Shown here: one piece after another, positions 10,276-27,247 of the stretch
Position numbering within the stretch: position 1 is the stretch's first letter
How the letters are laid out: each line of letters starts with the position of its first letter
Program-made: the position numbers and the translations under genes
Notes under the pieces: generated by a model
Databases searched by the model: none
What the model was told of the DNA's origin: nothing
The model's input: only the letters and a program-made list of their open reading frames with translations
From: a virus
Virus record (IMG/VR): IMGVR_UViG_3300028822_000042
Location: 22,501 to 86,500 of that record
DNA: 64,000 bases
Reading direction: 5' to 3' (one strand)

Positions 10276-10967
10276 TGACTTCTCTCCATCATGCATTAGA
10301 TGCAATAAGAAAGGCAGATGATGCCTTATATGCTGTTCCGTTTCCTGATGGTACAGAGATAGTTTTTCGTCTGCCTTCTTATAGAAAAGCTCTACAGTAT
10401 TCTGAGCTTATATCTATTAGCAAAGAAGACTCTCAACTTTCTTCTCATATCTACAACTATATATTTAAATCTGTATGTCAGGATAAATTTCTGGCAAATG
10501 ATAGCGACATGCTTCCAGCAGGTGTCCCTGAGACGGTTGCTAAATTAGTCCTACTCTTCTCTGGTGTAGATGAATCTTCATTAGACTATACAGAGACTCT
10601 TCTTAACTCATATAGATCTAGAGTTAATAATGTCATCTGTACAATGAAGAGGTGTATCTGCAAAGTGTTTTCTGGGTATAAGTATCATGAGCTAGATAGT
10701 CTTAACTATCAGCAACTTATTGAAGTATTTGTTCAAGCAGAGAAAGTTTTACAAGATGAAGGTATAATATCTGAAGAGGGTCTTGTTATTCAAAGACCTG
10801 AAGATAGTAAACAAAAAGATCTTGATGTTGGACAAATGATCAATAAGGACATTAAGGAATACAATCAATTTGAACATGGTGGTTCTTCAGGACAATCCCT
10901 GTATGACAGCCCAGAATATAAATCTAGACTAGAACAAGAGAAGATGAGAAGGATGAGACAGTCTTAG
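10275..10967 (+). CDS. Probable second tail assembly chaperone
   Basis: TAATG-coupled to the previous gene; similar 'IVFR...C...PAGVPETVAKLV' pattern. Confidence 0.55.
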   Translation: MTSLHHALDAIRKADDALYAVPFPDGTEIVFRLPSYRKALQYSELISISKEDSQLSSHIYNYIFKSVCQDKFLANDSDMLPAGVPETVAKLVLLFSGVDESSLDYTETLLNSYRSRVNNVICTMKRCICKVFSGYKYHELDSLNYQQLIEVFVQAEKVLQDEGIISEEGLVIQRPEDSKQKDLDVGQMINKDIKEYNQFEHGGSSGQSLYDSPEYKSRLEQEKMRRMRQS

Positions 10968-10980: not shown

Positions 10981-13900
10981 TTGGTCAAAAAAATTCTTGC
11001 AGAAGGGGAACAACCAGGTTTACCTGGTGAAGGGTTCCAAGATAATTCTGGTTCTTTAACAGCTCTTGCATTTGGCGCTGGAGGTCTTGCCGCTACTGGA
11101 TTTATTCCTGTTGGCAAAGGTCGGATGTGGGATAAGTATCTCTCTGGAATTAGAAGTGTAGAAACTGCTTTTCCCGGCGCAATACTAAGAACATTTAGGA
11201 CATCTGAGTTCCTCTCTCCTCTTGAGAGCTGGTCCAAGCTTGGTCTTGCTGAAGCTGAGCTTAAGGGTGCTGGAGTATATTCAGATTACCTTAAGACTAC
11301 TTTTGGCCAGGGCATAAAGGCACTAGATGTTACTAGAACTGGATCTGTATTTGGTGAAGTCAGAGACGAGGCTGGAAGACTTGTTGGTATGGCAGCCCAG
11401 ATGGAGGCTGGTACTCTCAAGGGTTCTGCTATCTCTGACTACTATGCTCGTGTTCAAGGATTAAATCTTACTCAGTATGATTCTTTAAATGAATCTTTGC
11501 TCAGAGCCAAGTGGAAAGCTGCTAAGAGTACTCTTCCTTATAATGAATGGGTAAAGACTCTTGAGCCTCATCTGCGTAGAGAACGTATAATACTTGGGGC
11601 TAAGATTAGAAACAAAGCCAATCTCATGGGGCTTAATCTTGAACTCTCTGAGAGGATGGCTCGCAATGTAGCTAAAGCAGAAATAGCAGGAAATATCCTT
11701 AGAGCTAAGGCAGCATCTACTGCCGGTAGACTAAACAATCTACTTACAAAACCATTAGAAGTTCCTGTTCTTGGTGATGTTCTAGAGAAAATACCTGGCC
11801 TGCGTAGTATGGCCGTTCGTCCTGGCACCAACTTACAGATACTTGGAAGGCTTACTGCCAAAGGTGCTGTAGCTGGTGCTGCTTGGAAGGGTTTAGATTA
11901 TGTAGACTATCTTCGTTCTGAAGGGTCTATATGGGCTGCTCCACTGTCTGTAGCTGGTGGGGCTGCAGCTGGTGCTTTTATAGCTAGAAGACCTGGTATG
12001 AAATTCTCTAAAGGAGGATTGATTGCCGGTGCAGCTCTTGGTCTGTTTACTTCCATATCTCCTAGATTTAGTGAAGGCATATTCTATGGTGCAGCATCTA
12101 CTACTGCAGATATAAATCTTGCTAGATCAGAATTGTCTAGTACCGTTGGGATCACAGAGTCTCTTCAAGAACAAGAGGAAGTAACTTCTGGTCTTGTAAC
12201 TCCTCAAGCTGCATTAGCATTTGGTGGTATTGGTGCTTTAGGTGTTGGATTCGCTGACTATTTTTCCTTTCTTGGTCGCGCAAGTAAAGAGAAGTTGGCT
12301 ACTAAAGAACCGTTCTTTAAAGTTCTTGAACGATTCAGAGAGAGAGAGGGCAACTTAGTATCTAATTTGTGGGAGTCTTCTCTTGGTAAGAAAATAGCTA
12401 AAACTCCTATTCTAAAACATCTTACTAAGATTAAGAGTGCAGCAGGACTTGGCTTTGTTGCTGGCCTTGCTGCATGGCAAGGAATTACATCTGGTCTTTC
12501 TCTCCTTGCTGGCAATCCATTGGCAGCTATACCTGGTGTTCCTTTTATAGGAACCACAGAAACTCCTGAAGAGCTTAGTGCTGTTTATTCAGGTGAGAAA
12601 GATGTAGCTGTACGTAAAGGCAGATGGTGGGAGTTTGGTAGATCAACTGGTTACGAAGGTGGACGTATAGAATACTATCGTCCGCACTTTCTACATAGAT
12701 TAAGAACTAGAGCGTATCAGAAAGGACTGTATGGTTCAGAAGAGGAGAAATGGGAATACGACCCCATGATAAATCCTCTTAAAGCTCTTTTCGGCTCGGA
12801 TGAGTGGAAATACCACTATGAGAAAAAACATCAGTATGATAGACCTGCTCCTCTTACAGGCACATATGGAGAAGATATTCCGTTCATAGGGCCTCTAGTT
12901 GCAGCTACATTTGGTAAGCTCTTCAAGCCTCGTAAGAAAGTACGTCCAGAAGAATGGAATCTTGGTGGTGGTGAATATGTAGATATTACTGACCCTAGAG
13001 GAGAGACAGAACCTGCATATGGTCTTGGTGGTTTAGGTCCCGGTGCACCTGTTGCTCCAGAAGAAGGCAGCCAACTATTAAACCAACTTAACTATAGGAG
13101 ACGTGAAGCTGTAGGTCTTGTAGGTTTCCTTGAGGGAGCCCTTACTAAGAGAGCTATTGGTAGAGAAGAATTTTTTCAGAACAAAAGAACCCTAGAAGGA
13201 ATGGGAGAAGAGACAGGTTCTGAATACTGGTTATGGAAACATCTTAATCTTGGCGGTGGGTTAGGCACTACAGAAGCAGTTAGACGTTTTATTCCTAGAA
13301 CTCCTAGCTATCTAGAGACATATAATCCTCTAAAGAATGCTCTTCCTTCTTGGATGCCAGATGACTACTTTCTAGATCTAAAGCATGGTAACCCCTTCAA
13401 GAAGATACCTGAAGCAGAGATAAGACTTCCTGGTGAAGGCTATGCCACCCTACATCCAGAAGTTGAAGGTCTATCTCCTGAAGAATATCCATTAGCACAT
13501 AGAGTTAAGATCCTTGGCGATGTAGCTATGTGGTCTAATGAATATAAAAGCACAATTAGATATGCCAAGTCTAGATTAGATCAATTCTCTCCTGAAGAAG
13601 CTCAGATGATTCAGGAGACAGAGGAACAAGTAAGAGCCAAGAAGGAGAGAAGAGAGTTTTCTCCCTATATATTTGGTGGCGACCAACTAGAAGAGATGGA
13701 TGTAACTGTCTCTGAAGTCTTAAGTCCTAGACATATTAAGACTAAAGAGATGGGAGATATGATTCTTGAGATTCAAGGTATTGGTGCAGTTAAGAATACA
13801 AAGGAAGCCTTAAACTTTGTTCAGCAGTCTCTTGAAGGCAGCAAGGTATCTGTCCATACACCTAAACTAGAACCTAGAAGATACAGCTCTATAACTAGAG

Positions 13901-15162
13901 GTCCTAGAATGAAGGTAGTTCCTATGGTTGAGGGACAGCCTATTAGTTCTTTAATGGCAGAGGAAGGTATTTCTGAAGCGAGGCCACTAGAAGATGAGTT
14001 CAAACAATTACAATTTTCAACGGCAGAACGTCTTGCAGGTAGATTAGGTGAATATGTCACTCATGGAATAGAGACTCCGCTTGAATATCTAACTCCTGTA
14101 TCTCCAGCATCAAAACTTATTCGTAAGAGATCTCCAGTTGAAGAATATGTTGCTACAGAAGCTATAGGAACTGGAGCCTCATTCTGGGATAGGCCTGTAG
14201 AGAATTTTCTAAAGCCTGCTTATAACATGGCTAAATACAAAGCAGGTATAGTTGATGTCCCTGAAAACGTAGAAGAAAGACGAGATATTCAAGAATACTT
14301 CGATATGCTGAAGTGGGTTAAAATGTCTCGTCTTGAGAAGAAAGCTCGACAAATAGGTGATGATACAGCTGCTGCTGAATATAGCAAAGCTAAATCCTCT
14401 ACTGTATTTGGTGTAGATGTCTTTAAGAGTCCTGTAAATATTATGAGGGCTCTTCCTCGTCGAGAGAGAGATTTCTTTGGCGAATTTGTTGACGCAAGAA
14501 CAGAAGAAGAGAGAGCACAAATCCTTCAACTCATACCTGAGAACGAGAGAAGAATTTATCTTTCTCAATGGATGAGACAAGAAGAAAGAGCAGCCTATTC
14601 AAAGAGGAATGCAAAGATAGAGACAGAAGAGGACGATAAGATAATAAACATGACTGCTAGAATGAGAGCCTCTGAAGGTTTTTCTTATCCTGAAGGTGCA
14701 GAAGAACAATGGCTTAAAGAGACTGGCGGTCGAATAGAATTTGATGAGTGGATTAGAGAACGTAAAGCAGAAGAATACTTTGAGACTCACTCTCTCCCTG
14801 GAGCAGACTGGCTAGGTTGGCATCCATCAGTGGACCTTGAAGATGTTAAAATGCTCATGGTTGAGCAAGCAGGCCTTGACCACCATGACTTTGATCTCTG
14901 GGGACAGAGAAGAAGAGCCCTTGCACGTAAGCCATATATAGAACCATCTCTCCTTCAAGGTATGACTGAAAGAGCTGAATATGAAGATTCTTGGAAGGTT
15001 GCTGAGAATTCTAGAACTCTTACAAGAATGTTTAATGACCATCAAGCAGAAATATATGTTTCTCAGTTAGATACCCATGGAGATGACAATAAATATGATA
15101 TCCAGGTTAAGGATAGCCGCAGAGACCTTATTGAGAAAGCCTACAGACATCTAGGAGCTTAA
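10981..15162 (+). CDS. Tape-measure-like / ejection protein with multiple hydrophobic helices and a degenerate SNase-like domain
   Basis: 1393 aa, TTG start 9 nt after AGGAGG, directly after the chaperones. At least five Gly/Ala-rich hydrophobic stretches in the N-terminal ~520 aa. Confidence 0.65.
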   Translation: MVKKILAEGEQPGLPGEGFQDNSGSLTALAFGAGGLAATGFIPVGKGRMWDKYLSGIRSVETAFPGAILRTFRTSEFLSPLESWSKLGLAEAELKGAGVYSDYLKTTFGQGIKALDVTRTGSVFGEVRDEAGRLVGMAAQMEAGTLKGSAISDYYARVQGLNLTQYDSLNESLLRAKWKAAKSTLPYNEWVKTLEPHLRRERIILGAKIRNKANLMGLNLELSERMARNVAKAEIAGNILRAKAASTAGRLNNLLTKPLEVPVLGDVLEKIPGLRSMAVRPGTNLQILGRLTAKGAVAGAAWKGLDYVDYLRSEGSIWAAPLSVAGGAAAGAFIARRPGMKFSKGGLIAGAALGLFTSISPRFSEGIFYGAASTTADINLARSELSSTVGITESLQEQEEVTSGLVTPQAALAFGGIGALGVGFADYFSFLGRASKEKLATKEPFFKVLERFREREGNLVSNLWESSLGKKIAKTPILKHLTKIKSAAGLGFVAGLAAWQGITSGLSLLAGNPLAAIPGVPFIGTTETPEELSAVYSGEKDVAVRKGRWWEFGRSTGYEGGRIEYYRPHFLHRLRTRAYQKGLYGSEEEKWEYDPMINPLKALFGSDEWKYHYEKKHQYDRPAPLTGTYGEDIPFIGPLVAATFGKLFKPRKKVRPEEWNLGGGEYVDITDPRGETEPAYGLGGLGPGAPVAPEEGSQLLNQLNYRRREAVGLVGFLEGALTKRAIGREEFFQNKRTLEGMGEETGSEYWLWKHLNLGGGLGTTEAVRRFIPRTPSYLETYNPLKNALPSWMPDDYFLDLKHGNPFKKIPEAEIRLPGEGYATLHPEVEGLSPEEYPLAHRVKILGDVAMWSNEYKSTIRYAKSRLDQFSPEEAQMIQETEEQVRAKKERREFSPYIFGGDQLEEMDVTVSEVLSPRHIKTKEMGDMILEIQGIGAVKNTKEALNFVQQSLEGSKVSVHTPKLEPRRYSSITRGPRMKVVPMVEGQPISSLMAEEGISEARPLEDEFKQLQFSTAERLAGRLGEYVTHGIETPLEYLTPVSPASKLIRKRSPVEEYVATEAIGTGASFWDRPVENFLKPAYNMAKYKAGIVDVPENVEERRDIQEYFDMLKWVKMSRLEKKARQIGDDTAAAEYSKAKSSTVFGVDVFKSPVNIMRALPRRERDFFGEFVDARTEEERAQILQLIPENERRIYLSQWMRQEERAAYSKRNAKIETEEDDKIINMTARMRASEGFSYPEGAEEQWLKETGGRIEFDEWIRERKAEEYFETHSLPGADWLGWHPSVDLEDVKMLMVEQAGLDHHDFDLWGQRRRALARKPYIEPSLLQGMTERAEYEDSWKVAENSRTLTRMFNDHQAEIYVSQLDTHGDDNKYDIQVKDSRRDLIEKAYRHLGA

Positions 15163-15163
15163 T

Positions 15164-18100
15164 ATGTTTGGACAAGATGAACGATCACCTCTATGGGGTT
15201 TAGCTGCTGGCGGAAGTCTTATTGGCGGTGCCGCATATGCTTTTAGTAAAAACAAATCAGCATTTGCTGATGTTCTTAAATCTAATCTAGATGTGGCCTC
15301 TTCAGTGGGGTCTAGAATTGCTGATGCTCCTGGCTTTGTTACAGTTAGAAATATGCCTTCAGCAGTAGGTTCTGTTAGTAGTGAATTGTCTTCACTAGTT
15401 CAGGATCTACCTAAGAGCACAATACGAGACATAGAACAACTTACATACAGATCTATCATGGCAGGCAAAACAGCAACCCATGAAGAAGCATTGTCAGCTT
15501 TGTCTGTAGTTAGAAAACAGGGATCTCCTCTAGAAGCATATGAAGCAGCAGTTGAGAAAGCTGGAGCATTAGGCGGAGACATAGGAGAGATAGAAAGAGG
15601 AATGAAAGGAATTGGAAGTGTTCCTTCAGAATCTATAGTTAGACGTGCAGGAGTTTCTGAGGGAGGATTTGGTTTTGGCTTTCAATATGAGAAATTTGCT
15701 GATCTTAGTGAAGATGCCCAATCCAGATATACAAGACTTAAAAGCAACCTTGAGTCAGCAGCTGGCAGAAAAATAGATATTAGAGTTAAGAACATAAGTG
15801 ATATTATTGACAATGAGGTTGTAACTACTCCTATGGCTACAGCAGAAATTGCAGGAGAGTCATTTAATATTCCACTTGCTGATACAAAATATACTTATGG
15901 AGGCAAAGGATATACTGCTAGATACGCAACTAGAGGGGCCTATACTGCTACTGGCCATAAGATGACTTATTCTCAACTTGCTGAACAGACACTTATAGAT
16001 GCTTTGTCTGGCGCACAATCTCATAGAGAAGTTAAGCAAAATTTACTTCAAGCACATCAAACACTGATAGATCAAATGAACTCTAGAGATTCAGATGCTA
16101 GAGCAGCAGCAGTATGGACTCTTCCTGAGCCTGTTGCTCCTTCTGGATCTAAAGCTAGAACACGTATACTTGCACAAGAGGCAATTGCATCAGGCAAGAT
16201 TACAGAGGAAGAAGTAATTAATCTTTTAGGACATGGCTTCTATGGATACACAAGTCCCTCTGCTGCAGCAAAGGGAACATTAGCTACTCAAAATCTAGCA
16301 ACTGGTCTCTATGGTCCTCTTGGGGCTTTTATGAGTGCAGAGCAGAAACCTACTCAATTCATTAGAGGAGAATGGGGTGTTACAGGAGAAGCTAAAAGAA
16401 GAGCTAAAGCTTTTAAAGGTGCATTCGGACAAGCATACTCTCGTTTAGATAGAAAGATGAAGGGAGAACTATATGACCCTCTAATATATGGTAAAGGAGT
16501 TAATCCCCTATCTGCAGAAGCTTACTCCTCTCCTCAATTACTTACATTTTATGCAAAGCCTGCTGCAAAGAAAGAATATGGTATTGGCTATAAGTCAGGA
16601 GCTCTTAATGAACTTCTTTCAGCAGAAGAAGGAGTTATATCTAAATCTGTTACCGGACAGATGGAACATGAAAGAGTAATTCAGAAGAAGATTGCTCTTG
16701 ATGAAGGTTTTAGAGTTAACAAACAAATCTCAGAACAACTTAAAGATGTACCTCCAGGTTCTGGAGTTTCTCCTGTATTCTTAGGCGAAAATCAGTTTGT
16801 TGGAATAGAGAAAGGCACAGGTAAAGAAATAATAACTAGTAGAGGAGATGCTATTGAAAATGTTGTTGGTGCTGAGATTACTGGGCCTAATGAGGCTAAT
16901 GTTTTTATAAGAGAACGTAGAAGATTGTCAGAAGATGAATATTGGAAGTTCTTCTCAGAAGAGAACAAATTTATGGCTTCTGCTGCTTCTGAAGAGAAGA
17001 TGAGAAAGACTATTAAAGCAGCTGGGGTAGGAGACCTCAGAAAAATAGCTGGTCAGGAAATAGAAGCTGTGTTCTCCGGTAAGCTTGTTGGCAGAAACAA
17101 AATGGCACTTCTAAACCAGCAGATAGAAGCAGCAAGTATGTTTCTTGGTAGAAAGATAGATAGAGGAACAATTGCTTCTCCTGCGGCGCAAGAATTCTTA
17201 GCTGACCCTATAAAAGCTCTCAATGTAAAAAGTCTTATGGCTTCAAGTGCAGCAGATGCTGATTTTCAAATACAGAAGAACTTGGTTGGCTTAACAAGAA
17301 AGTGGGGCTTCTCTGGATTTGAAACACAGTTAACATTTGGTCTTACTGATCTTGATGTAGCAGCTAAGCTTGAGAAACAGACAAACTTTAGAGGCTTTTC
17401 TAGATTAGTTGAGAGAGCACCTGGTGTAGTCGGTCTTGGCAAAATGAAGCTTGGCGATAGAGCAGCTGAAGGTGGAGCTGGAAGAATAGGATCATTTGAA
17501 ACTACAGGTTTTAGAGCCTTGGCGATGAAAGGCGAAACAGGAGAAAGCTTTGCTGCTGAACTAAGAAATAGACTTCTTGGTAAAGGTGATATTACAGAAT
17601 CAGACAGAATGTTTGCCTCTGTTATTGGAGAACAAGGCTTCTTTGATAAGTTTAAACGTAGAGGTTTAGAAAATTTAACAGATATAGATCCTGAAGAACT
17701 GTTTGTTCCTGAAGGTAGAGAAGTTAGTCTTGGTCGGAGGATGAAAGAACTAGGAGGATCCTCTTCTTTATATGTCCCAGGTCTTGAGACATCTCCTGAT
17801 ATAATGGCTCCGTCTATCGTTAAAGGTGAAAGAGTACAGTCTCCAGCCGCTAAAAGCATAATGTCTTTCCAAGGCTCTCTTAGTAAACATGTCGCCGGTA
17901 AAATAGGAGATGAAGAACTTGAGGCTGCAGCTGCCACTCTCAGAACTAATCTAGCTAGAGTCTCAGAGCAGCAAGCATTTGCTAAGAGTAAAGTACTTGG
18001 CTCTAGAGTTCTTACAGGCATCAGAGGAAACTTTGCCAAGGATAGAGATACTTTTAGAATATCTAAATCTGCAGCAGAAGGAATGTTTGATGAGCTTATT

Positions 18101-19549: not shown

Positions 19550-19552
19550 TAA

Positions 19553-22500
19553 ATGACAAAGAAGAAAAAACCAACTCGTGAAGAGCACCTAAAGTATATG
19601 AAGACAGACACTTCATCTATACTTGGTAAGTTAGGTTCTTTTCCTGTACGTAGGTTACATCAAGAAAGAGACTATTCTACCTCTCCTCGCACATCACTTA
19701 GATATATATCATCTACGATTGAGAGAAGTCGTCCTTCATTTGATAAAGCAAGAACAACTGGATTTGATTATAATCCAGGTTATGTAATTCCTTCAGACAT
19801 TGAGTTAAATACAGGTTTTAGTGACGAAAGAGAACTTCAGTTAGAGAACGACTTTGCTGAACCTATTAGCAGTGAATCTATTGAAGGCGGAACAAATAGA
19901 CCTGATCTACTAGAGCAAGAAATAGAAGAAGCTATTTCTAAAGATACTAAGCTAGCTACAAAATTTTCTTTTAATACTTTTTCAGATGATTTTCTCATCA
20001 TAAATGATGTCTTTCTCTATAACGTTCCTACAGCAAGTATCTCAATTCGGTCACAAACTGATGTTTTTGTTGGTGAGACACTTAGAACTAGAGCACCTGT
20101 AATCTCTACAGAAGGTCGACAAGATTTCATTTTGAATTTAAGTTTAGTCTTTAATCCTGGTAGAGAACAAACAGAAGATTTACGTAGACTTATATCTGAA
20201 CTATCAAGACATCCTCTTGTCTTTATCTTCAATAACAAAGTTAGAAAGTCAATTGGTGTTGGTGAATTCGACACCACAATGTTTATTCTTGAAGCGGGTA
20301 CACTTAGAAGCTCATCTGAATCTGTAGGTGCTGTAGTACTAGATTTACAGATGCACTATTTCAATCATAAACCTTTCAGCAATAACTTCTTCTTCAACGC
20401 GAAGATGCCCGGTATTTCATATTCTTCTGAGATTGAAGACTCAAAGGCAAGAGAGCCACTTAGTTTAGATAGTCTTGAAGGATATGAGTCGTCTGATTAT
20501 ATTCTTGACCAAAAAGCACAAGATATAAGAGAAAGAATAAGAAAGAGTGTTACTCAAGTTGCAGATTCTAAGACAAGAAATATTCCTGTAAACTTTCCTT
20601 CAGAGTCTGATTCTTGGAAGTATTATGCAGATCATCTTACTGATTTGACTCCTATCATCTCTGAGAAGCCATCAGACTATATGAGCTTTTCTGTTAAGGT
20701 CTTCGAAGTAAAAGACCCTCCTAAAGAAGCAAAACAAGGACTTGGTACGATTCAGGGCGCCTTAACAAGCACAGTTACTCGTCCTTCTGTCAAGTCTATG
20801 TATGATGCTACTAAGCCTCTTCCTGAATCCAAAACATACCAACAGAAAGAGGTAGAGGCTACGTATGATTCTAATGTACAGCCATCTGCTCTTGAAGGCA
20901 CACCTATTGATTTTTATAGTTATGACTCTGGCAGGTCTGACAGTATTATACTTACTGCTTCTCCTGGTGTTGTTCATAGTGATGCCTCAAGTAGACTTTC
21001 TGATTTAATTAATGTTGGGAAGGATGAAGGCGCCCCTGCAATTCAACCTGGATTAATTCTACATATGCAAAAAGTAGCTAATAGATTTCCAGGTAGAAAA
21101 ATTTTAGTTAATTCAGGTTCCAGGTTTCCTAAAAACCCAGAGAAATTCTATTCTAAACCAGTAGAGAGAAGAAGTAGACATGCTACTGGAAACGCCATGG
21201 ACTTTAAGGTTCAAGGCGTATCAAATAGAGAACTTTTTAAGTTCTTAAGAACTCTTCCTAATTGTGGATCAGGATACTATCCTAATTCTACATTCTGCCA
21301 TGCTGATTATAGATCTAGAAAGGATTATTGGGTTGATATTTCTGGCCCGGGAGAAAAATCACATTATCTTAGAGGCCAAGACAGAGCAGATTACCTTAGA
21401 CAACATGTCTATGATGGGTCTGCACAATCAGACAATGTAGAGGCAGAAGCCGACAAGAGAAGTCGTCAGGCTAAATCAAAACCTCATGAGCAACGTAAAG
21501 ATGCTGCCGCTCCTAAATCAAGTGAATACGCTAAACAAGAAGAAGAATTATACAAGAAACAAACAAAACAAGATCCTTCTATTGGACATAAAGTAAACGA
21601 CCCAGTAAAGAGGTCGTGGCAGGCTAGAGCTGATTGGATAGAAAAACTCTATAGAGAAGGAGGTTGGATCTATTATTCAGGAGAAGATAATAAGATAAGA
21701 AATGTATTCTATAAGGAGTACTCTGTAGAAATCTCTTCTGGTATAGATTCAAATAGAGATCCTGACATTCTTAGAAATATTGTTTGTTCTGCAATCTCAA
21801 TTCAGTTTGGTCATAGAATTGCTCCTATGAGATTGCTTAGTCAACATACATACACTTATCAATTTCTTGGCGCTGGTAATAAATCTGGACAAATGGTTTT
21901 TACTTTCTCTGGCAAGAAAGGTCGTGAGTCTGCAGATGCTCTGAAGAGACTAATTATTTTTGCTAGAGATAATGCAAGAAATTTTGGAGGTGTAATCAAA
22001 GAAGCAGGAACTATATATATAAATGGCCTCAACTACAATAATGGAGACACTAATACAATTCTGTCTCTGCTTAATATAGAGAATATCATTATTACAGATA
22101 TTAAGGAGTCTTCTCTTCCGGACTCTGTAGATAAACACCAACTTGTACTTGAGTTTATTATTCAGGATTTTCAAGAAGAGACTTTTGAAAAACTATTTGT
22201 TGAATCTGTTGAGAATAGAAGAAGAATAATAAAACAAATATTTAAGTATCTTACTAGAAACAAATATGGTGTGGTTCCTGTCCCTTCAGTGGCCACCTAT
22301 GATCCATCTCAATATAGACCGTATGTTTTAAACAAGGAGACTCCTTCTTGGGTTTCAAGTATTATTAGCAGAGCGGCTACTATAACTAGAAATATAGAGA
22401 AGCAGATGCCTCCTCTTGACTGGAAGTTAGAGCCTAGATCTTCAAGAACATGGAGAGACATATATGCAGAGTGGGGAGCTGATAAAGTAATAAAGGGAGA

Positions 22501-25500
22501 CTATTCAAATGTCTCTTCTTCAGACTTCAATGCTTCTTCTTTAACTGTAGGTAGAAGTGTGTCTTTGTCTGCAGTTCAAGACCTAACAGAAAGACGCAAG
22601 TTCGAGAGTAATGGAGGATCAGAAACCAACAATACTCATAATGATCTATATAGAGAATGGCTATCACAGATGACCAACCTCACTAAAGAGGTCAAGAAGT
22701 ATATAGAAGACGAGAAGAACTTTGAAAAGTACTTTGGTTCTCTTGGTGATGATTTATTAGATGCTGTTACTCAGACTATGGGTGAGTGCTATGGAGATAT
22801 GCTTCTTCCTAATCTTCCACATGCTAACATTCCCGTACCTCCAGAATTCTATGTCTATGACGACTCAGATGAAAGCCCTATCTTATCCAATATTACAGAC
22901 CCTGCTAATATGGAGAAGTTTTTAAAAGAACATATTAGGAATGAAGTTCAATCTATATCTTTGTACATGAGAGAACGTTGGCTTGGTGGATCATACTTAG
23001 CAAAGAATCTTCCTCGTATATTAGAAAATAGGAAATATTACGATAGACAGATGCAAGGAGAGTTTGATTTTATAGATAATTTTTGGAAGATATATCAAGA
23101 AGGAGCAACAGCTTGGGAACCAATAACATATAAAGAGGACCCTTCTATTGATAACAATTCTCAAGTTAAGAAGTGGAAAGAATTTACTTATGCTGGTATA
23201 GGAGCCACTAATCCTGAAGACGCTAGATTTAAATACATGGAAAGTCTTGTTGGCTTAAGTCAATATCTTAATAAAGGTAGACATTGGCAAACAAGTTATA
23301 CTGAACAAGATAACCGTAACCTAGTGACAAATATATATGGCGACCTGTATGATAAGACATCTTTTGGTCCCAATCCACAATATAACAAAGCAGATGCTGC
23401 ATCTAATGGCAAAGCTCTTCCAGAACGAACACTAACTCAGATACAAGCGATAACAAACCAAGCGTATTCTAAAGTAGCTAAAGACAATAATGTAGCTATT
23501 CCTATTGGTTCTGATAGAACCGCGTTACCAAACGGTGATATTGTTATAGGAGACACGAAAGAAGAAAGATTAGCTGAAGAATACTCAACAAGTGTTGCTA
23601 TGATTAATGCAGCTAAAGAGAGTGTCGATAGGATGAAGAGACGCTCTCAGAATAGCTTATTGGGGTATATCGGTAGTGTTGGTGGTCTTGCTCTTGTCTC
23701 TATGCTTGATTTTACTGACACCTATGATGTTGATGCTTCTGATTTAATATATAGAGGAAATGCTGATGCTGTAAATAGAGCTAGCGCAGCACAGCATATA
23801 TCTAATGTAATTAAAACTTTAGATCATAATATTAAAGAAAACGTAGATGAAACCAACCAAGAAGACAAGATGGCATCTATGTTTGCTGGGATGGCTATTG
23901 GCTCTAAGGCAGATGATCTTAGCATTCGAAGAGCATATCCAACATTTAAAATATATTTTATTGAAGAAGACGCTCAAGATAGCGAAATGATAGATGGGAA
24001 GGTCGTCAGAGCATTTGATGACTTTTACAGTTATTCAGCTATTCAAGAAATAAAGATAACTAGGTCTCGCAAAATAGCTTCTGATCTTGCTGTTATAAGA
24101 ATGACTAATGTTGGTGGTCTTCTTCTAAGACGTAGATTTGGAGATAGAGATCCTAGACAAAATAGTACTGGTGAAATGCAAGGTGTTTTTGCAGATACCG
24201 CTAAAGAGCATCCATTTGAGAAGATGGTTCTTCAAGATGGAGTAAAGGTTCAAATCAGACTTGGTTATGCCTCAGACCCAAGTAATCTAGAGTCAGTATT
24301 TCTTGGTCAGATAGTTGAGATAGCGCCTTCAGAACATGGCAAAATCTTAGAAATAATGTGTCAGGGATATGGAGCTGAACTTGAATCTATTGAACTTGGC
24401 GAGCTAGAGGATGGACCTATATATACTAGCACTCAACAAGCTCTGTCTTCTGCTATCATTCAAGATAGCGTGTCTACATTTGGTAGACAAAGTAATTTTA
24501 ATAGATTCAATCCTGCAGAAATAAGACATGCTTGGACAGGAGGTACTGGAGATAGTATTCTTGGAAAAATAAATCCTGCTACTGCTGTCAGAGATTGGGC
24601 AGACCATAATATGGATAAACACTTCCAGAAGTACACCTTCTTGAATTTTCCTCAAGATGATAATATTTTTGCTCCTCCTCCTTCTGCTTATGCCTCAGCA
24701 TGGATGAGGTTTTATAACAATGCCTGTATCTACAGACCTTTAAAACAAACTCCATGGCAAATATTCAAAGAACATGAACTTAGACATCCTGGATATATTT
24801 CTATGGCTGTACCATATGGACATTCACCTAGAATGACAATGTTCTTTGGTTCAAAGATGCAGCACTATTGGTCTAAACCTCCTTCATCTTTAGAACTATT
24901 TGCGTCTGAGAATGCATATAATGCTCTTGTTAGAATGAGAGGCAAAGTTGCTTCAGGCGATTTTAAGTCTTTACAAGGTTTAATTAGTCGACTGACTAAA
25001 GAGTCAGGAGAAAAGCCTAAGCTTATATCTGCGATGCTTAGAGATATTGCTTTGTCTGGTGCTCCTACAAGAACATCTCAAGCAATTGCTAAAGAGACAG
25101 GAAGATATAAACCATTTAGAAACTATCATTACTTTGATAGCTATCACCATATTTTAAAAAATGAAATTCGTACTTCTACAGATGGAACATTTAATGAAGT
25201 AGAAATACTATTCTTTACTGATGAAGATGATATTCAAGAACAATATGCAGAAGATCTAATAAAAAGCATTCAAAGTCTTGGATCAAAACAGGAAGGTGTA
25301 TTTTCTGTTAAGCTAGATGAAAATATACTTGAAAGTTCACTAAGGTCTTACAGAGAAGAATTTCCGTCATGTGTCACTGTAGATATGGCAAGAAGGTATG
25401 CTCAGGGTATTTTTGCAAGACACCTTAGAGACGCCTATAAAGGAGAGCTTATTGTTCTTGGCAAAGAAACACTAAAGCCATATGATATTTGTTATCTCAA

Positions 25501-26008
25501 TGATGCAAGTATCAATATGACAGGGCCTATAGAAGTTGAAGCTGTCACTCATGTCTTTAATAGAGATAATGGATTTATTTCAATAATAACTCCTGACTTA
25601 TGTGTTGACGTAAATGATATGTTTAGTACTACTGTATTTGATGTAGCTGCTGCTGGATATAGTTCGGTATGGAGCTGGAATGATGCTTTAAACCCACCAG
25701 CGGCTATTCTTAGTTCTATTGCTGGGTTTCTTGCTATGTCTGCTGGTGTTAAACTATCAATGTGGACGCAAGATGGCGATCCTGTAGTTCCAACACCTCT
25801 AACACTTGGCGGTAAGCCTTTTATGAGTGTATCGCTTGGGCCAAATCAATCTTCATTGTTCTTGAACTTCTATGGCAAATGGGTTCAATATTGGGATGAT
25901 CTTGAAGATGCTTGGCATAAATTTGATATTGCAGAAGAAATCTTTGATAAGAGAGTTGGCTTTAGGACTAAGATTCTATCTATGTTGGGAACAGGAACAG
26001 GAGAGTAA
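19553..26008 (+). CDS. Giant baseplate hub / tail-associated lysin with Peptidase M15 (YcbK/DUF882-like) domain
   Basis: 2151 aa. Contains 'VNSGSR...SRHATGNAMDF...GYYPNSTFCHADYR'. The C-terminal part has hub-like features ('VQIRLGY', 'VFLGQIVEI', 'YKGELIVLG...LKPYD'). Confidence 0.75.
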   Translation: MTKKKKPTREEHLKYMKTDTSSILGKLGSFPVRRLHQERDYSTSPRTSLRYISSTIERSRPSFDKARTTGFDYNPGYVIPSDIELNTGFSDERELQLENDFAEPISSESIEGGTNRPDLLEQEIEEAISKDTKLATKFSFNTFSDDFLIINDVFLYNVPTASISIRSQTDVFVGETLRTRAPVISTEGRQDFILNLSLVFNPGREQTEDLRRLISELSRHPLVFIFNNKVRKSIGVGEFDTTMFILEAGTLRSSSESVGAVVLDLQMHYFNHKPFSNNFFFNAKMPGISYSSEIEDSKAREPLSLDSLEGYESSDYILDQKAQDIRERIRKSVTQVADSKTRNIPVNFPSESDSWKYYADHLTDLTPIISEKPSDYMSFSVKVFEVKDPPKEAKQGLGTIQGALTSTVTRPSVKSMYDATKPLPESKTYQQKEVEATYDSNVQPSALEGTPIDFYSYDSGRSDSIILTASPGVVHSDASSRLSDLINVGKDEGAPAIQPGLILHMQKVANRFPGRKILVNSGSRFPKNPEKFYSKPVERRSRHATGNAMDFKVQGVSNRELFKFLRTLPNCGSGYYPNSTFCHADYRSRKDYWVDISGPGEKSHYLRGQDRADYLRQHVYDGSAQSDNVEAEADKRSRQAKSKPHEQRKDAAAPKSSEYAKQEEELYKKQTKQDPSIGHKVNDPVKRSWQARADWIEKLYREGGWIYYSGEDNKIRNVFYKEYSVEISSGIDSNRDPDILRNIVCSAISIQFGHRIAPMRLLSQHTYTYQFLGAGNKSGQMVFTFSGKKGRESADALKRLIIFARDNARNFGGVIKEAGTIYINGLNYNNGDTNTILSLLNIENIIITDIKESSLPDSVDKHQLVLEFIIQDFQEETFEKLFVESVENRRRIIKQIFKYLTRNKYGVVPVPSVATYDPSQYRPYVLNKETPSWVSSIISRAATITRNIEKQMPPLDWKLEPRSSRTWRDIYAEWGADKVIKGDYSNVSSSDFNASSLTVGRSVSLSAVQDLTERRKFESNGGSETNNTHNDLYREWLSQMTNLTKEVKKYIEDEKNFEKYFGSLGDDLLDAVTQTMGECYGDMLLPNLPHANIPVPPEFYVYDDSDESPILSNITDPANMEKFLKEHIRNEVQSISLYMRERWLGGSYLAKNLPRILENRKYYDRQMQGEFDFIDNFWKIYQEGATAWEPITYKEDPSIDNNSQVKKWKEFTYAGIGATNPEDARFKYMESLVGLSQYLNKGRHWQTSYTEQDNRNLVTNIYGDLYDKTSFGPNPQYNKADAASNGKALPERTLTQIQAITNQAYSKVAKDNNVAIPIGSDRTALPNGDIVIGDTKEERLAEEYSTSVAMINAAKESVDRMKRRSQNSLLGYIGSVGGLALVSMLDFTDTYDVDASDLIYRGNADAVNRASAAQHISNVIKTLDHNIKENVDETNQEDKMASMFAGMAIGSKADDLSIRRAYPTFKIYFIEEDAQDSEMIDGKVVRAFDDFYSYSAIQEIKITRSRKIASDLAVIRMTNVGGLLLRRRFGDRDPRQNSTGEMQGVFADTAKEHPFEKMVLQDGVKVQIRLGYASDPSNLESVFLGQIVEIAPSEHGKILEIMCQGYGAELESIELGELEDGPIYTSTQQALSSAIIQDSVSTFGRQSNFNRFNPAEIRHAWTGGTGDSILGKINPATAVRDWADHNMDKHFQKYTFLNFPQDDNIFAPPPSAYASAWMRFYNNACIYRPLKQTPWQIFKEHELRHPGYISMAVPYGHSPRMTMFFGSKMQHYWSKPPSSLELFASENAYNALVRMRGKVASGDFKSLQGLISRLTKESGEKPKLISAMLRDIALSGAPTRTSQAIAKETGRYKPFRNYHYFDSYHHILKNEIRTSTDGTFNEVEILFFTDEDDIQEQYAEDLIKSIQSLGSKQEGVFSVKLDENILESSLRSYREEFPSCVTVDMARRYAQGIFARHLRDAYKGELIVLGKETLKPYDICYLNDASINMTGPIEVEAVTHVFNRDNGFISIITPDLCVDVNDMFSTTVFDVAAAGYSSVWSWNDALNPPAAILSSIAGFLAMSAGVKLSMWTQDGDPVVPTPLTLGGKPFMSVSLGPNQSSLFLNFYGKWVQYWDDLEDAWHKFDIAEEIFDKRVGFRTKILSMLGTGTGE

Positions 26009-27237: not shown

Positions 27238-27247
27238 GAGCTGATCT

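What the first reader, a model, noticed from the sequence alone, without database searches (positions are those of the whole stretch)
10981..26008. Three-gene giant entry module: membrane-channel-like protein + RNAP + peptidoglycan-cutting hub
Where a single tape-measure gene is expected, there are three ORFs of 1393, 1461 and 2151 aa separated by only 1 and 3 nt. They plausibly encode successive entry functions: cell-wall hydrolysis (M15), inner-membrane crossing (multi-TM protein) and first transcription (RNAP). No classical repeat-rich tape measure is evident, so tail length may be set by one or both of the first two proteins stored unfolded in the tube.
Basis: inference. Interest (0 to 1): 0.75.

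Follow-up and report, generated by a model that had tools for sequence, protein, structure and literature searches.

The report
Myovirus tail module with hidden RNA polymerase
Three back-to-back giant genes in the tail block of an uncultured large contractile-tailed phage encode a conserved virion-type protein with hydrophobic segments, a one-chain relative of the cell's RNA polymerase sitting where the tail "ruler" gene normally lies, and a cell-wall-cutting baseplate hub, which together look like the phage's entry and first-transcription kit.

Summary
Observation confirmed. ORFs of 1393, 1461 and 2151 aa lie at the stated coordinates, 1 and 3 nt apart, between tail-chaperonin and baseplate genes of a myovirus. 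The reading is partly supported.

- **ORF2:** an AlphaFold model (pLDDT 80.5) matches RNA polymerase beta in its first half and beta' in its second. It also matches single-chain QDE-1. DFDRD is invariant in 30 of 30 relatives.
- **ORF3:** an M15 peptidase plus the hub region of Bacillus phage 0305phi8-36 gp147.
- **ORF1:** a homologue of 0305phi8-36 gp145, a virion protein. It has Gly/Ala-rich hydrophobic segments, a novel conserved core and an SNase-like domain. A channel role is only inferred.

The trio is syntenic in 15 of 15 related IMG/VR loci and in phages 0305phi8-36 and ME3. ME3 gp036, in the same slot, also looks like an RNAP. No classical tape measure was found, including in a complete 197.7-kb relative.

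In the papers I searched, only Thermus siphovirus P23-45 has an RNAP joined to a tape measure. I call this a new variant of that kind. Packaging, activity and ruler function are untested. This scan has already flagged RNAPs in myovirus tape-measure slots on other DNA.

The parts
5068..6960 (+). Tail sheath. This is context and shows the phage has a contractile tail.
   Evidence: PHROG 16991 tail sheath, E 1.6e-63.
6981..9551 (+). Three tube-like paralogues (6981-7655, 7726-8658, 8658-9551).
   Evidence: All three hit phrog_9206 (E 1.4e-44, 3.3e-33, 7.8e-10). The 0305phi8-36 proteins under that label carry the notes 'tail tube' and 'tail tube paralog'.
9634..10275 (+). Tail assembly chaperonin, gp143-like.
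   Evidence: BLASTP to 0305phi8-36 gp143, E 3e-13, 32% identity over 104 residues.
10275..10967 (+). Second small gene, in the gp144 (chaperonin) slot.
   Evidence: Assigned by position only. BLASTP to gp144 gives E 0.081, not significant. No Pfam or PHROG hit.
10981..15162 (+). ORF1, 1393 aa: a homologue of 0305phi8-36 gp145 (virion protein) and ME3 gp035.
   Evidence: tblastn over residues 508-1386 to 0305phi8-36 ORF145 and to 5 other cultured phages (8 records in all). 131 metagenomic homologues. Directly upstream of the RNAP gene in 15 of 15 loci.
11056..12549 (+). ORF1 N-terminal region (residues 26-523) with five clusters of Gly/Ala-rich hydrophobic segments: 26-44, 317-335, 342-360, 404-428, 492-523.
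   Evidence: Kyte-Doolittle scan, 19-residue window, scores 1.2-1.58. The segments are visible in the family consensus. This part was not modelled.
12568..13680 (+). ORF1 conserved core (about residues 530-900), fold unassigned. It holds three of the five intein insertion sites seen in homologues.
   Evidence: Many invariant residues across 26 sequences. Inteins sit after residues 554, 763 and 821 in homologues. High pLDDT but no match in PDB.
13681..14016 (+). ORF1 SNase/OB-like domain (residues 901-1012).
   Evidence: VIA-align Z 10.4-10.6 to Tudor-SN, extended Tudor domains and staphylococcal nuclease, 93-105 residues aligned at rmsd 2.5-2.8. Foldseek E 2e-3 to 2e-2. The sequence is poorly conserved in the family.
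15164..19549 (+). ORF2, 1461 aa: a single-chain two-barrel RNA polymerase in the tape-measure slot.
   Evidence: AF2 model of residues 201-1340: pLDDT 80.5, pTM 0.76. All listed Foldseek PDB hits are RNAP beta or beta' chains. VIA-align ranks 1-18 are all RNA polymerases.
16796..17083 (+). ORF2 beta-like barrel region (about residues 545-640), with invariant K595 and K602.
   Evidence: Model residues 1 to about 600 align to beta/Rpb2-type subunits: phiKZ nvRNAP chain C Z 12.1, AR9 Z 11.2, others Z 9.4-10.3. K595 and K602 are invariant in 30 of 30 sequences and lie in predicted strands.
17987..18385 (+). ORF2 beta'-like barrel (about residues 942-1074).
   Evidence: Model 622-1101 aligns to Rpb1, A190, archaeal A' and beta' (Z 7.0-8.7). 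Isolated DPBB domains align to model 745-890 (Z 5-6.6). R1010 and P1012 are invariant.
18353..18367 (+). Catalytic loop DFDRD (D1064, D1066, D1068).
   Evidence: Invariant in 26 of 26 close and 30 of 30 wide family members, down to 16% identity.
19172..19228 (+). ORF2 C-terminal hydrophobic segment (residues 1337-1355).
   Evidence: Kyte-Doolittle 1.34. ME3 gp036 has a segment at the equivalent place (1480-1498).
19343..19546 (+). ORF2 conserved C-terminal tail (residues 1394-1461, including D1443, D1444, R1445).
   Evidence: Invariant or nearly invariant columns. D1443 and R1445 are nearly invariant in the wide family. The likeness to the C-terminus of 0305phi8-36 gp146 is not significant (BLASTP E 0.20).
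19553..26008 (+). ORF3, 2151 aa: baseplate hub protein with a peptidoglycan peptidase.
   Evidence: Same position as 0305phi8-36 gp147 and ME3 gp037.
20978..21310 (+). ORF3 M15 (DUF882/YcbK-type) zinc peptidase domain, residues 476-586.
   Evidence: Pfam PF05951 E 7.2e-10 (39.2 bits, cut-off 27) and PF08291 E 1e-6. PHROG 894 endolysin E 1.2e-9.
23924..25672 (+). ORF3 hub region (residues 1458-2040), homologous to the central part of 0305phi8-36 gp147.
   Evidence: tblastn query 1458-2022 to gp147 and 1458-2040 to ME3 gp037. PHROGs 20474 (E 1.4e-42) and 8809. 334 homologues. The T4 gp27 homology of gp147 comes from PMC2147016 and was not re-tested here.
26797..28510 (+). Baseplate wedge genes: gp25-like (26797-27237) and gpJ/gp6-like (27248-28510). 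This is context.
   Evidence: PHROGs 261/43 and PHROG 6 (E 2.5e-32).

Best explanation
The three genes are the conserved central tail (lumen or tip) module of a clade of large myoviruses related to Bacillus phage 0305phi8-36 and Acinetobacter phage ME3.

ORF3 is the baseplate hub. It carries an exchangeable cell-wall hydrolase, here an M15 peptidase, that opens the peptidoglycan after sheath contraction.

ORF2 occupies the gene slot of the tape measure but is a single-chain two-barrel RNA polymerase with an intact metal-binding loop. It has a C-terminal hydrophobic segment and a conserved C-terminal tail. It is most likely assembled into the particle with the tail, expelled ahead of the DNA, and used to transcribe the first genes that enter. 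This is the model proposed for the tape-measure-fused polymerase of Thermus phage P23-45.

ORF1 is a gp145-type virion protein. Its N-terminal third has Gly/Ala-rich hydrophobic segments like those of tape measures. It probably leaves with ORF2 and inserts in the inner membrane, while its globular part, with an SNase/OB-like domain, stays at the DNA entry site.

Shown here: the ORFs, the folds, the invariant motifs, the synteny, and the lack of a recognisable classical tape measure. Inferred: packaging, ejection, polymerase activity, pore formation, and which protein sets tail length.

The confidence of 0.55 is for the whole chain. My separate estimates are about 0.9 for the RNAP fold with a conserved catalytic loop, about 0.85 for the hub with M15, about 0.6 for ORF2 being virion-carried and injected, and about 0.35 for ORF1 forming the membrane conduit.
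For: **ORF2 fold.** The AF2 model has pLDDT 80.5 and pTM 0.76.
- Foldseek against PDB gives 32 hits at E<=1e-3, and every listed row is a beta or beta' type chain of a multisubunit RNAP.
- In VIA-align against 48,161 chains, ranks 1-18 are all RNA polymerases. The N-terminal half matches beta (phiKZ nvRNAP Z 12.1, rmsd 5.1, 290 aligned). The C-terminal half matches beta' or Rpb1 (Z 7.0-8.7). The whole model matches single-chain QDE-1 (Z 9.0, 453 aligned) and RDR2 (Z 8.7). P74 gp62 scores Z 6.2 and P23-45 gp96 Z 5.6 and 5.4.

**ORF2 motifs.** D1064, D1066, D1068, R1010, P1012, K595 and K602 are invariant in 30 of 30 sequences down to 16% identity. Two long helices follow the second barrel. A low-confidence loop falls at the conserved GGKHG (model 981-986), where a bridge helix and trigger loop would lie.

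**Slot.** The order is gp143-like chaperonin, gp144 slot, ORF1, ORF2, hub, gp25-like, gpJ-like. The same order is annotated in 0305phi8-36, where gp145 and gp146 were found in virions by mass spectrometry, and in ME3.

**ME3.** ME3 gp036 (1603 aa) is in the same slot. It has GDHDQDQ and hydrophobic segments at both ends. The BFVD models A0A172Q021_1 and _2 (801 and 802 residues) match the ORF2 model at E 7.5e-7 and 5.9e-8. That these are the two halves of gp036 is my inference from their summed length.

**Synteny.** The trio is kept in 9 of 9 close loci and 6 of 6 distant loci.

**No other tape measure.** PF10145 and PF06791 match 0 of 5 records, including complete G001. The other large ORFs of the window have no tape-measure family.

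**Hub.** The M15 hit is above the Pfam cut-off. In hub homologues the wall-hydrolase domain varies: M15, M23 (PF01551), SLT (PF01464), VanY (PF02557), or none recorded.

**Precedent.** In P23-45 gp96 the RNAP, transmembrane and metallopeptidase parts are in one chain, and it is shown to be the virion RNAP (PMC10770324; passages and section 12 read).
Against: - There is no direct evidence that ORF1, ORF2 or ORF3 is in the particle. The mass-spectrometry evidence is for 0305phi8-36 proteins. ORF2 has no detectable sequence similarity to gp146 (hhalign E 0.74; C-terminal BLASTP E 0.20), and gp146 has no DxDxD.
- ORF2 has no tblastn hit in 50,697 phage records. Its link to ME3 gp036 is by predicted structure only (hhalign E 0.023, probability 2%).
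- Both modelled parts are compact globular folds (pTM 0.76 and 0.77). These would not fit a tail-tube lumen unless stored unfolded, so a capsid location is as compatible.
- The similarity to P23-45 gp96 itself is weak (Z 5.4-5.6), and lower than to beta, beta' and QDE-1.
- The ORF1 hydrophobic segments score only 1.2-1.6 on the Kyte-Doolittle scale.
- No second RNAP and no promoters were identified, so the transcription programme is unknown.
- Fold similarity does not show activity.
Confidence: 0.55

Rival explanations
1. ORF1 and ORF2 are capsid-internal ejection (cargo) proteins that merely happen to be encoded in the tail block. They would be stored in the head like the N4 and crAss-like virion polymerases or the T7 internal core proteins. 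Tail length would then be set by something else, for example the N-terminal part of ORF1 alone or the tube paralogues.
For: Both modelled parts are large compact globular folds that cannot sit folded in a tube lumen. The known virion RNAPs of N4 and crAss-like phages are head cargo (recalled; Chaban et al. mention these fusions). No statistically supported similarity to any tape measure exists.
Against: The strict position between tail chaperonins and hub is kept in 15 of 15 loci and in two cultured phages. ORF1 has tape-measure-like hydrophobic segments, and ORF2 has a conserved C-terminal tail. No other tape-measure candidate was found in a complete relative. In P23-45 the RNAP is physically part of the tape measure.
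Confidence: 0.22
2. ORF2 is a non-virion RNA polymerase made late with the tail genes and not packaged. It would act only inside the producing cell, for example in late transcription, and its position is a genomic accident.
For: No packaging evidence exists for ORF2. Single-chain phage RNAPs that are not virion-borne are known: P23-45 gp64 and P74 gp62, which also match the model at Z 6.2. YonO-like enzymes occur in 0305phi8-36 outside the tail module (ABS83659.1 against gp146 = ABS83704.1).
Against: A polymerase first made together with late structural genes cannot start the programme. The gene is translationally coupled to virion genes. It carries a hydrophobic segment and a C-terminal tail unnecessary for a soluble enzyme. 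The slot is conserved across sequences as low as 16% identical. It is the only recognisable RNAP in the complete relative G001.
Confidence: 0.1
3. ORF2 is a structural tape measure whose polymerase fold is an inactive relic, kept only as bulk or as a ruler.
For: It sits in the tape-measure slot, and its length is tightly conserved: 1438-1509 aa in close relatives and 1416-1567 in distant ones. The loop reads DFDRD rather than the glycine-containing cellular form (DFDGD, recalled).
Against: All three aspartates, the preceding R-x-P and two lysines of the other barrel are invariant over a family that has otherwise diverged to 16-20% identity. That is the signature of selection on catalysis. P23-45 gp96 in the same kind of context is an active polymerase.
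Confidence: 0.05

Closest known systems
Thermus phage P23-45 gp96 (also P74-26, G20c, TSP4): virion two-barrel RNA polymerase fused to the tail tape measure (Chaban et al. 2024, PMC10770324; PDB 8h2m/8h2n)
   Same: A single-chain two-barrel RNAP with DxDxD, encoded at the tape-measure locus of a tailed phage. It is associated with transmembrane segments and a metallopeptidase, and is proposed to transcribe the first genes during DNA entry. The solved gp96 core aligns to the ORF2 model (Z 5.6 and 5.4).
   Different: - P23-45 is a siphovirus with a 5,002-residue protein in which RNAP, TM and peptidase are one chain.
- Here the phage has a contractile tail. The RNAP gene is a separate 1461-aa protein with no long helical tape part. 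The hydrophobic segments are mostly in ORF1 and the peptidase is in the hub ORF3.
- No relative longer than 1567 aa was found among 68 hits.
- The structural similarity to gp96 is weaker than to beta, beta' and QDE-1.
- Activity and packaging are shown for gp96, not here.
Bacillus phage 0305phi8-36 gp145-gp146-gp147 (Hardies et al. 2007, PMC2147016)
   Same: The gene order is identical: sheath, tube, tube paralogue, two chaperonins, three giant genes, gpV-like and gpJ-like. ORF1 is homologous to gp145. The ORF3 hub region is homologous to gp147, and the chaperonin to gp143. Both hubs are 'hyperplastic' gp27-like proteins with exchangeable wall-degrading domains.
   Different: - gp146 (2537 aa) was assigned as the tape measure from its length. 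It has no DxDxD, no Pfam hit and no detectable similarity to ORF2.
- gp147 carries transglycosylase, NlpC/P60 and M23 domains instead of M15.
- 0305phi8-36 has a YonO-like RNAP elsewhere in its genome.
Acinetobacter phage vB_AbaM_ME3 gp035-gp036-gp037 (NC_041884.1)
   Same: The same trio in a cultured myovirus. gp035 is a homologue of ORF1. gp036 (1603 aa, 'hypothetical protein') has GDHDQDQ and hydrophobic segments at both ends. gp037 is the hub peptidase. BFVD models that I take to be its two halves match the ORF2 model (E 5.9e-8 and 7.5e-7).
   Different: Sequence similarity between ORF2 and gp036 is not significant. ME3 has a further RNAP-like 798-aa protein (A0A172Q0S6, E 3.7e-7); no counterpart was found in this clade's complete relative.
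Single-chain two-barrel RNA polymerases QDE-1/RDR2 and crAss-like phi14:2 gp66
   Same: One chain holds both double-psi beta-barrels. QDE-1 aligns over model 54-1095 (Z 9.0) and RDR2 at Z 8.7. A crAss-like 'RNA dependent RNA polymerase' is a BFVD hit (E 3.5e-5).
   Different: The first half of ORF2 resembles the beta subunits of multisubunit enzymes (phiKZ and AR9 nvRNAP, Z 11-12) more than these. phi14:2 gp66 (6VR4) is not among the 50 rows shown. crAss-like phages are podoviruses.

Membership tests
Two-barrel (double-psi beta-barrel) RNA polymerase superfamily - ORF2 | Two DPBB domains in beta-like then beta'-like order, forming one active-site cleft | tested here: met
   In the AF2 model, residues 1 to about 600 align to beta/Rpb2-type chains (Z 9.4-12.1) and 622-1101 to beta'/Rpb1-type chains (Z 7.0-8.7). 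Isolated DPBB domains align at 745-890. All listed Foldseek PDB rows are RNAP chains. This rests on a predicted structure.
Two-barrel RNA polymerase superfamily - ORF2 | DxDxD metal-binding loop in the beta'-like barrel | tested here: met
   DFDRD at residues 1064-1068. The three Asp are invariant in 26 of 26 and 30 of 30 sequences.
Two-barrel RNA polymerase superfamily - ORF2 | Two conserved basic residues in the beta-like barrel | tested here: inconclusive
   K595 and K602 are invariant in 30 of 30 sequences and lie in predicted strands of the first barrel region. I could not obtain a residue-level superposition to show that they are the catalytic pair.
Two-barrel RNA polymerase superfamily - ORF2 | Bridge helix and trigger loop after the second barrel | tested here: inconclusive
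   Long helices at model 924-959 and 961-983, with a low-pLDDT loop at 981-986 over the conserved GGKHG. The assignment is by position only.
Two-barrel RNA polymerase superfamily - ORF2 | Template-dependent RNA synthesis | not testable with these tools
   Needs biochemistry.
Tape-measure-fused virion RNAP (P23-45 gp96 type) - ORF2 | RNAP domain and a long tape-measure part in the same polypeptide | tested here: not met
   ORF2 is 1461 aa, of which about 1100 model as the RNAP. All 68 relatives found among 1.84 billion representatives are at most 1567 aa. TM-rich and peptidase parts are in the neighbouring genes.
Tape-measure-fused virion RNAP (P23-45 gp96 type) - ORF2 | Gene at the tape-measure locus, between tail chaperones and hub or tip | tested here: met
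   for the window. for 15 of 15 related loci.
Tape-measure-fused virion RNAP (P23-45 gp96 type) - ORF2 | Presence in the virion and transcription of pre-early genes | not testable with these tools
   No proteome or transcriptome is available for this uncultured phage.
Classical tail tape measure protein - ORF1 and ORF2 | Membership of a tape-measure sequence family (Pfam PF10145, PF06791; PHROG tape-measure families) | tested here: not met
   There are no Pfam or PHROG hits for ORF1 or ORF2. PF10145 and PF06791 match 0 of 5 records while the controls did match.
Classical tail tape measure protein - ORF1 and ORF2 | Long, mostly extended alpha-helical chain, often with repeats | tested here: not met
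   This applies to the modelled parts only: ORF1 500-1393 and ORF2 201-1340 are compact mixed alpha/beta folds with pTM 0.77 and 0.76. There are no tandem repeats. ORF1 1-499 and the ORF2 termini were not modelled.
Classical tail tape measure protein - ORF1 and ORF2 | Protein length proportional to tail length | not testable with these tools
   The tail length of this phage is unknown.
0305phi8-36 gp145 family - ORF1 | Sequence homology and the same position after the two chaperonin genes | tested here: met
   tblastn over residues 508-1386, summed 303 bits, best piece E 4e-19. Position.
Staphylococcal nuclease (SNase) - ORF1 residues 901-1012 | SNase OB-type fold | tested here: met
   Z 10.4 to 1sta_A (105 aligned, rmsd 2.8). 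Z 10.6 to Tudor-SN 3bdl_A.
Staphylococcal nuclease (SNase) - ORF1 residues 901-1012 | Catalytic Ca-binding and Arg/Glu residues | tested here: inconclusive
   There is no Pfam SNase hit in ORF1, and this stretch is mostly unconserved in the family consensus. No residue-level superposition was available. It is probably non-catalytic.
T4 gp27 / P2 gpD-type baseplate hub - ORF3 | Homology to an established hub protein and position before the gpV/gp25/gpJ-like genes | tested here: met
   tblastn query 1458-2022 to 0305phi8-36 gp147 and 1458-2040 to ME3 gp037. Downstream gp25-like and gpJ-like genes.
T4 gp27 / P2 gpD-type baseplate hub - ORF3 | gp27 fold | not tested
   The gp27 homology of gp147 is taken from PMC2147016 (HHsearch E 0.11 and 0.015 there).
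Peptidase M15 (DUF882/YcbK type) - ORF3 residues 476-586 | Match to the family profile above the curated cut-off | tested here: met
   PF05951 scores 39.2 bits (cut-off 27). PF08291 scores 29.2 bits (cut-off 23.2).

The most novel reading that the evidence does not exclude
This myovirus clade has no dedicated ruler protein. The space inside the tail tube is filled by two enzymes or effectors stored in a non-native, extended state: ORF1 (pore-former plus DNA-binding module) and ORF2 (RNA polymerase). Their combined length sets tail length. On contraction they are threaded out ahead of the DNA and refold at the inner membrane. There they form a membrane-anchored machine in which the polymerase transcribes, and thereby helps pull in, the leading end of the genome. 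The middle gene would be a swappable cargo slot: RNAP here and in ME3, a different giant protein in 0305phi8-36.
Probability: 0.2. Interest if true: 0.85.

Novelty: new variant of a known kind. Interest (0 to 1): 0.62.

Why it matters
Virion RNA polymerases let a phage start its programme without the host enzyme. Those shown so far are in N4-like and crAss-like podoviruses, phiKZ-like jumbo phages and one Thermus siphovirus.

A single-chain cellular-type polymerase in the tape-measure slot of contractile-tailed phages would extend the P23-45 principle to a large, widespread clade. I found 68 representative clusters for ORF2, 131 homologues for ORF1 and 334 for the hub region.

It also sharpens an unsolved physical question: how a folded enzyme of about 160 kDa is stored in or passed through a tail.

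Acinetobacter phage ME3 is cultured and has the same trio. Packaging, activity and rifampicin-resistant early transcription are therefore directly testable.

The work also corrects annotation. Proteins of this family are labelled 'hypothetical' or 'minor tail protein'. The gp145 family, a frequent intein host, has a confident but unmatched fold.

Tried and rejected
**ORF1 as the beta-like half of a split polymerase.** I considered this because of an N-P...P-S-W-M stretch that recalled a beta-subunit motif, and because of its many inteins. I rejected it for four reasons:
- The ORF2 model alone contains both barrels.
- The ORF1 model matches no RNAP.
- ORF1 homologues occur in 0305phi8-36, whose slot protein has no DxDxD.
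- Inteins are rife throughout this phage group: in the terminase of this record, and in ThyX, Pol III alpha and RNR of G001. They are also reported in actinophage tape measures (bioRxiv 10.1101/2025.01.02.630785, passages).

**Sequence searches of ORF1, ORF2 and ORF3 against PDB.** Only chance-level hits, E at or above 0.3.

**megablast of the 15-kb region against phages.** No match.

**Profile searches linking ORF2 to other slot proteins.**
- Profile A1 against the 0305phi8-36 and ME3 records: nothing at E<=1.
- hhalign of A1 against ME3 gp036 and against gp146: not significant.
- BLASTP of the C-terminal 150 residues of ORF2 against gp146: E 0.20. The shared conserved C-terminus idea is therefore unproven.

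**Search for a second RNAP in relatives.**
- A1 profile at E<=10 finds one match per record in 4 of 4 records.
- PF05183 and PF00940 found nothing, but also found nothing in the controls, so they are uninformative.
- Sub-domain HMMs and a D.D.D scan of 282 ORFs of G001 gave only the slot gene.
- Pfam on 8 large G001 ORFs gave replication and nucleotide-metabolism enzymes, one glycosyltransferase, one carbohydrate-binding protein and one ORF without a hit.

**ESM Atlas with ORF1 520-1393.** No usable hit.

**Complex prediction of the ORF3 hub region with the ORF2 C-terminal tail.** The verdict was 'no answer' (score 0.00). This is neither for nor against binding.

**An exonuclease in 0305phi8-36 gp146.** A DEDD-like motif, seen by eye, has no Pfam support.

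**Literature searches for an RNAP at a myovirus tape-measure locus.**
- 'two-barrel' + 'RNA polymerase' + 'tape measure': 2 papers, both the P23-45 work.
- 'tape measure protein' + 'RNA polymerase domain', 2021 onward: 0 papers.
- 'two-barrel RNA' + phage + virion, 2023 onward: 1 paper, the same work.
- 'tape measure' + vRNAP: 25 papers, 15 listed, none on this by title or abstract start.
- vB_AbaM_ME3 + 'RNA polymerase': 9 papers. [quoted passage not shown]

Supplements were closed. Supplementary Data 3 of PMC10770324 (23 RNAP families) could already contain this family, and I could not see it. Thomas et al. 2007 (the 0305phi8-36 proteome) is recalled and was not seen. Its results reached me only through GenBank notes and PMC2147016.

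Full report
**What is there.** The window is bases 22501-86500 of an 86.5-kb IMG/VR virus record, estimated 45% complete. Three ORFs sit on the + strand: 10981-15162 (ORF1, 1393 aa, TTG start), 15164-19549 (ORF2, 1461 aa) and 19553-26008 (ORF3, 2151 aa). The gaps between them are 1 and 3 nt. A Shine-Dalgarno-like AGGAG or GAGAGG lies inside the end of each upstream gene, and AGGAGG lies 9 nt before the TTG of ORF1.

PHROG scans place the trio in a contractile-tail module:
- major head protein at 15-1154;
- sheath at 5068-6960;
- three tube-like paralogues at 6981-9551;
- after the trio, a gp25-like gene (26797-27237) and a gpJ/gp6-like gene (27248-28510), then fibre genes.

The gene at 9634-10275 is homologous to the gp143 tail chaperonin of Bacillus phage 0305phi8-36 (E 3e-13).

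**A known relative of the module.** ORF1 finds ORF145 of 0305phi8-36 by tblastn, together with genes of Moorella, Acinetobacter and other Bacillus jumbo phages (8 records). The 0305phi8-36 record has the same order:
- sheath, tube and tube paralogue;
- gp142, then chaperonins gp143 and gp144;
- gp145 (virion protein by mass spectrometry);
- gp146 ('hypothetical tape measure protein', also found in virions);
- gp147 (hub with wall-degrading domains);
- gpV-like and gpJ-like genes.

Hardies et al. [quoted passage not shown] They noted that only its last 60 residues align with prophage relatives. They described gp147 as a 'hyperplastic' T4 gp27 homologue with exchangeable peptidoglycan-cleaving domains. 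Acinetobacter phage ME3 has the same trio, gp035, gp036 and gp037. A three-giant-gene module is therefore not new in itself.

**ORF2 is a two-barrel RNA polymerase.** Pfam, PHROGs, PDB sequences and 50,697 phage records give nothing for ORF2. It has 31 metagenomic homologues in the 90%-clustered collection. A phmmer search of its core against 1.84 billion representatives gave 68 clusters at E<=1e-3, none longer than 1567 aa.

An AlphaFold2 model of residues 201-1340, built with 26 sequences, is confident: pLDDT 80.5 and pTM 0.76.
- Foldseek against PDB gives 32 hits at E<=1e-3. Every listed row is a beta-type or beta'-type chain of a multisubunit RNA polymerase.
- VIA-align against 48,161 representative chains puts RNA polymerases at ranks 1-18.
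- The first half of the model aligns with beta-type subunits: phiKZ nvRNAP chain C Z 12.1, AR9 Z 11.2, and plastid, vaccinia, ASFV, Pol I, Pol III and bacterial enzymes at Z 9.4-10.3.
- The second half aligns with Rpb1, A190, archaeal A' and beta' (Z 7.0-8.7).
- The whole model aligns with single-chain QDE-1 (Z 9.0, model 54-1095) and RDR2 (Z 8.7).
- The solved phage enzymes P74 gp62 (Z 6.2) and P23-45 gp96 (Z 5.6 and 5.4) also appear.

The loop DFDRD (1064-1068) is invariant in 26 of 26 close relatives. In a 30-sequence alignment reaching 16% identity, D1064, D1066, D1068, R1010, P1012, K595, K602 and E1175 all stay invariant. The cellular form of the loop, NADFDGD, is recalled from memory and comes from no call. 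I take this as strong evidence for an RNAP fold under selection for catalysis. Activity itself is not shown.

**ORF2 does not look like a ruler, but it sits in the ruler's slot.** About 1100 of its 1461 residues form the globular polymerase. What remains is:
- an N-terminal 200 residues;
- a C-terminal hydrophobic segment at 1337-1355;
- a Pro-rich stretch;
- a conserved C-terminal tail with near-invariant D1443 and R1445.

The resemblance of this tail to the C-terminus of gp146 is visible by eye but not significant (E 0.20). gp146 has no DxDxD and no Pfam domain.

ME3 gp036 does have GDHDQDQ and hydrophobic segments at both ends. Two BFVD models, A0A172Q021_1 and _2, have lengths that sum to its 1603 residues, and I therefore take them as its two halves. 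They match the ORF2 model at E 7.5e-7 and 5.9e-8. Another top BFVD hit is labelled 'Minor tail protein' of an uncultured siphovirus (E 8.7e-10). Sequence-level comparison of ORF2 with gp036 is not significant.

**ORF1.** There are 131 homologues. Of the 120 listed, 31 carry intein or homing-endonuclease Pfam domains. In a 26-sequence alignment, inserts of 165-459 residues lie after ORF1 residues 554 (6 sequences), 763 (2), 821 (1), about 1280 (1) and about 1303 (1).

The N-terminal 523 residues hold five clusters of Gly/Ala-rich hydrophobic segments, with Kyte-Doolittle scores of 1.2-1.58. A model of residues 500-1393, built with 41 sequences, is confident (pLDDT 81.6, pTM 0.77) and compact. 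Only one part has a recognisable fold: an SNase/OB-like domain at residues 901-1012, with Z 10.4-10.6. It is poorly conserved and has no Pfam SNase hit. The highly conserved core (about 530-900) and the C-terminal helical domain match nothing convincing.

So 'multi-TM' holds as an observation of hydrophobic segments. 'Membrane channel' is an inference by analogy with tape measures that form the DNA conduit.

**ORF3.**
- M15 peptidase at residues 476-586, above the Pfam cut-offs.
- C-terminal hits to giant 'endolysin' PHROGs.
- tblastn homology of residues 1458-2022 to the middle of gp147, and of 1458-2040 to ME3 gp037.
- The hub region has 334 homologues. In the 120 listed, the precomputed wall-hydrolase domain varies: PF05951/PF08291 (M15), PF01551 (M23), PF01464 (SLT), PF02557 (VanY), PF18979, or none. 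Some contain inteins.

This fits the exchangeable-domain hub that Hardies et al. described. I did not model the gp27 fold.

**Synteny and the search for another tape measure.** The IMG/VR loci found with the close ORF2 family (9 loci) all have an ORF1 homologue directly upstream. Eight have an ORF3 homologue directly downstream; the ninth contig ends inside the ORF2 homologue. Six further loci, found with a profile of distant family members, each show three adjacent ORFs of 1249-2111, 1416-1548 and 1914-2013 aa with the same homologies.

- PF10145 and PF06791 match none of 5 records, including G001 (197,730 bp, terminal repeats, 100% complete). The same searches did match control genomes.
- The other large ORFs of the window and of the 22.5 kb upstream have no tape-measure family.
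- In G001 the only ORFs over 1200 aa are the trio.
- No second RNAP was recognised in G001. This is weak negative evidence.

**Most likely mechanism.** After sheath contraction, the hub peptidase cuts the peptidoglycan. ORF1 and ORF2, assembled with the tail through the chaperonins, leave ahead of the DNA. The hydrophobic segments of ORF1, and the C-terminal segment of ORF2, insert in the inner membrane. The polymerase then transcribes the first DNA to enter. This is the model proposed for P23-45 gp96, in which RNAP, transmembrane and metallopeptidase parts are one 5,002-residue chain (PMC10770324). Here the same three kinds of part are spread over three coupled genes of a myovirus.

The steps shown are folds, motifs and synteny. 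Packaging, ejection, activity, pore formation and length determination are inferred. The main rival is that ORF1 and ORF2 are head-stored cargo, because both are large globular proteins. A complex prediction of the ORF2 tail with the hub gave no answer.

**Novelty and score.** In the papers I could search, the only RNAP at a tape-measure locus is that of P23-45 and its Thermus relatives. The comparative jumbo-phage survey lists two-barrel RNAPs for 0305phi8-36 (a YonO-like gene outside the tail module) but not for ME3.

I rate this a new variant of a known kind: separate gene, contractile tail, partnered with the gp145 family. It is interesting because a cultured phage makes it testable.

Earlier notes of this scan report the same kind of gene in the tape-measure slot of myoviruses on other DNA. 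158 findings in at least 120 genomes hold the search words, and follow-up reports on related 1467-aa proteins exist. I did not use these to set the score.

Noticed in passing
G000:C1:4310-8650 (13.9 kb before the window start; locus L014): A 1446-aa protein combines a DnaQ/PolB-type exonuclease-like region (PHROG 192, E 1.7e-13), an SNase domain (Pfam E 4.3e-12) and a protein-kinase-like region (several kinase families, E 1e-6 to 1e-3). It lies just before the terminase and may be another injected effector.
   Followed up: partly
G000:C1:10329-13397 (locus L014): The terminase large subunit is interrupted by an intein with a LAGLIDADG endonuclease (Pfam Intein_splicing E 1.8e-15). Inteins also sit in ThyX, Pol III alpha and RNR of the complete relative G001, and in ORF1 and hub homologues. 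This phage group is unusually intein-rich.
   Followed up: partly
window 6981-9551: Three consecutive paralogous tube-like genes (224, 310 and 297 aa) all hit phrog_9206. 0305phi8-36 has a tube plus one annotated 'tail tube paralog'.
   Followed up: no
window 53166-56753: A 1195-aa tail fibre or spike protein has many repeated internal matches (phrog_4636, E 2e-157, in 11 stretches). At 33410-36916, a 1168-aa protein ends in a Peptidase_S74 intramolecular-chaperone domain (Pfam E 7.9e-5).
   Followed up: no
window about 57200-64000: The coding strand switches to minus from 57364 onward, and GC and AT skew reverse sign in the same place. This is probably the border between the structural module and another module.
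   Followed up: no
L002 19999-27609 (0305phi8-36 gp146): The annotated 'hypothetical tape measure' of 0305phi8-36 contains a DEDD-exonuclease-like motif by eye, but has no Pfam hit and no DxDxD. Earlier scan notes mention exonuclease-RNAP fusions in this slot in other phages.
   Followed up: partly
BFVD hits: ME3 has a second RNAP-like protein (A0A172Q0S6, 798 aa, E 3.7e-7). Microcystis phages MaMV-DC and Ma-LMM01 also have proteins that match the ORF2 model (E 1.4e-4 and 5.7e-4).
   Followed up: no
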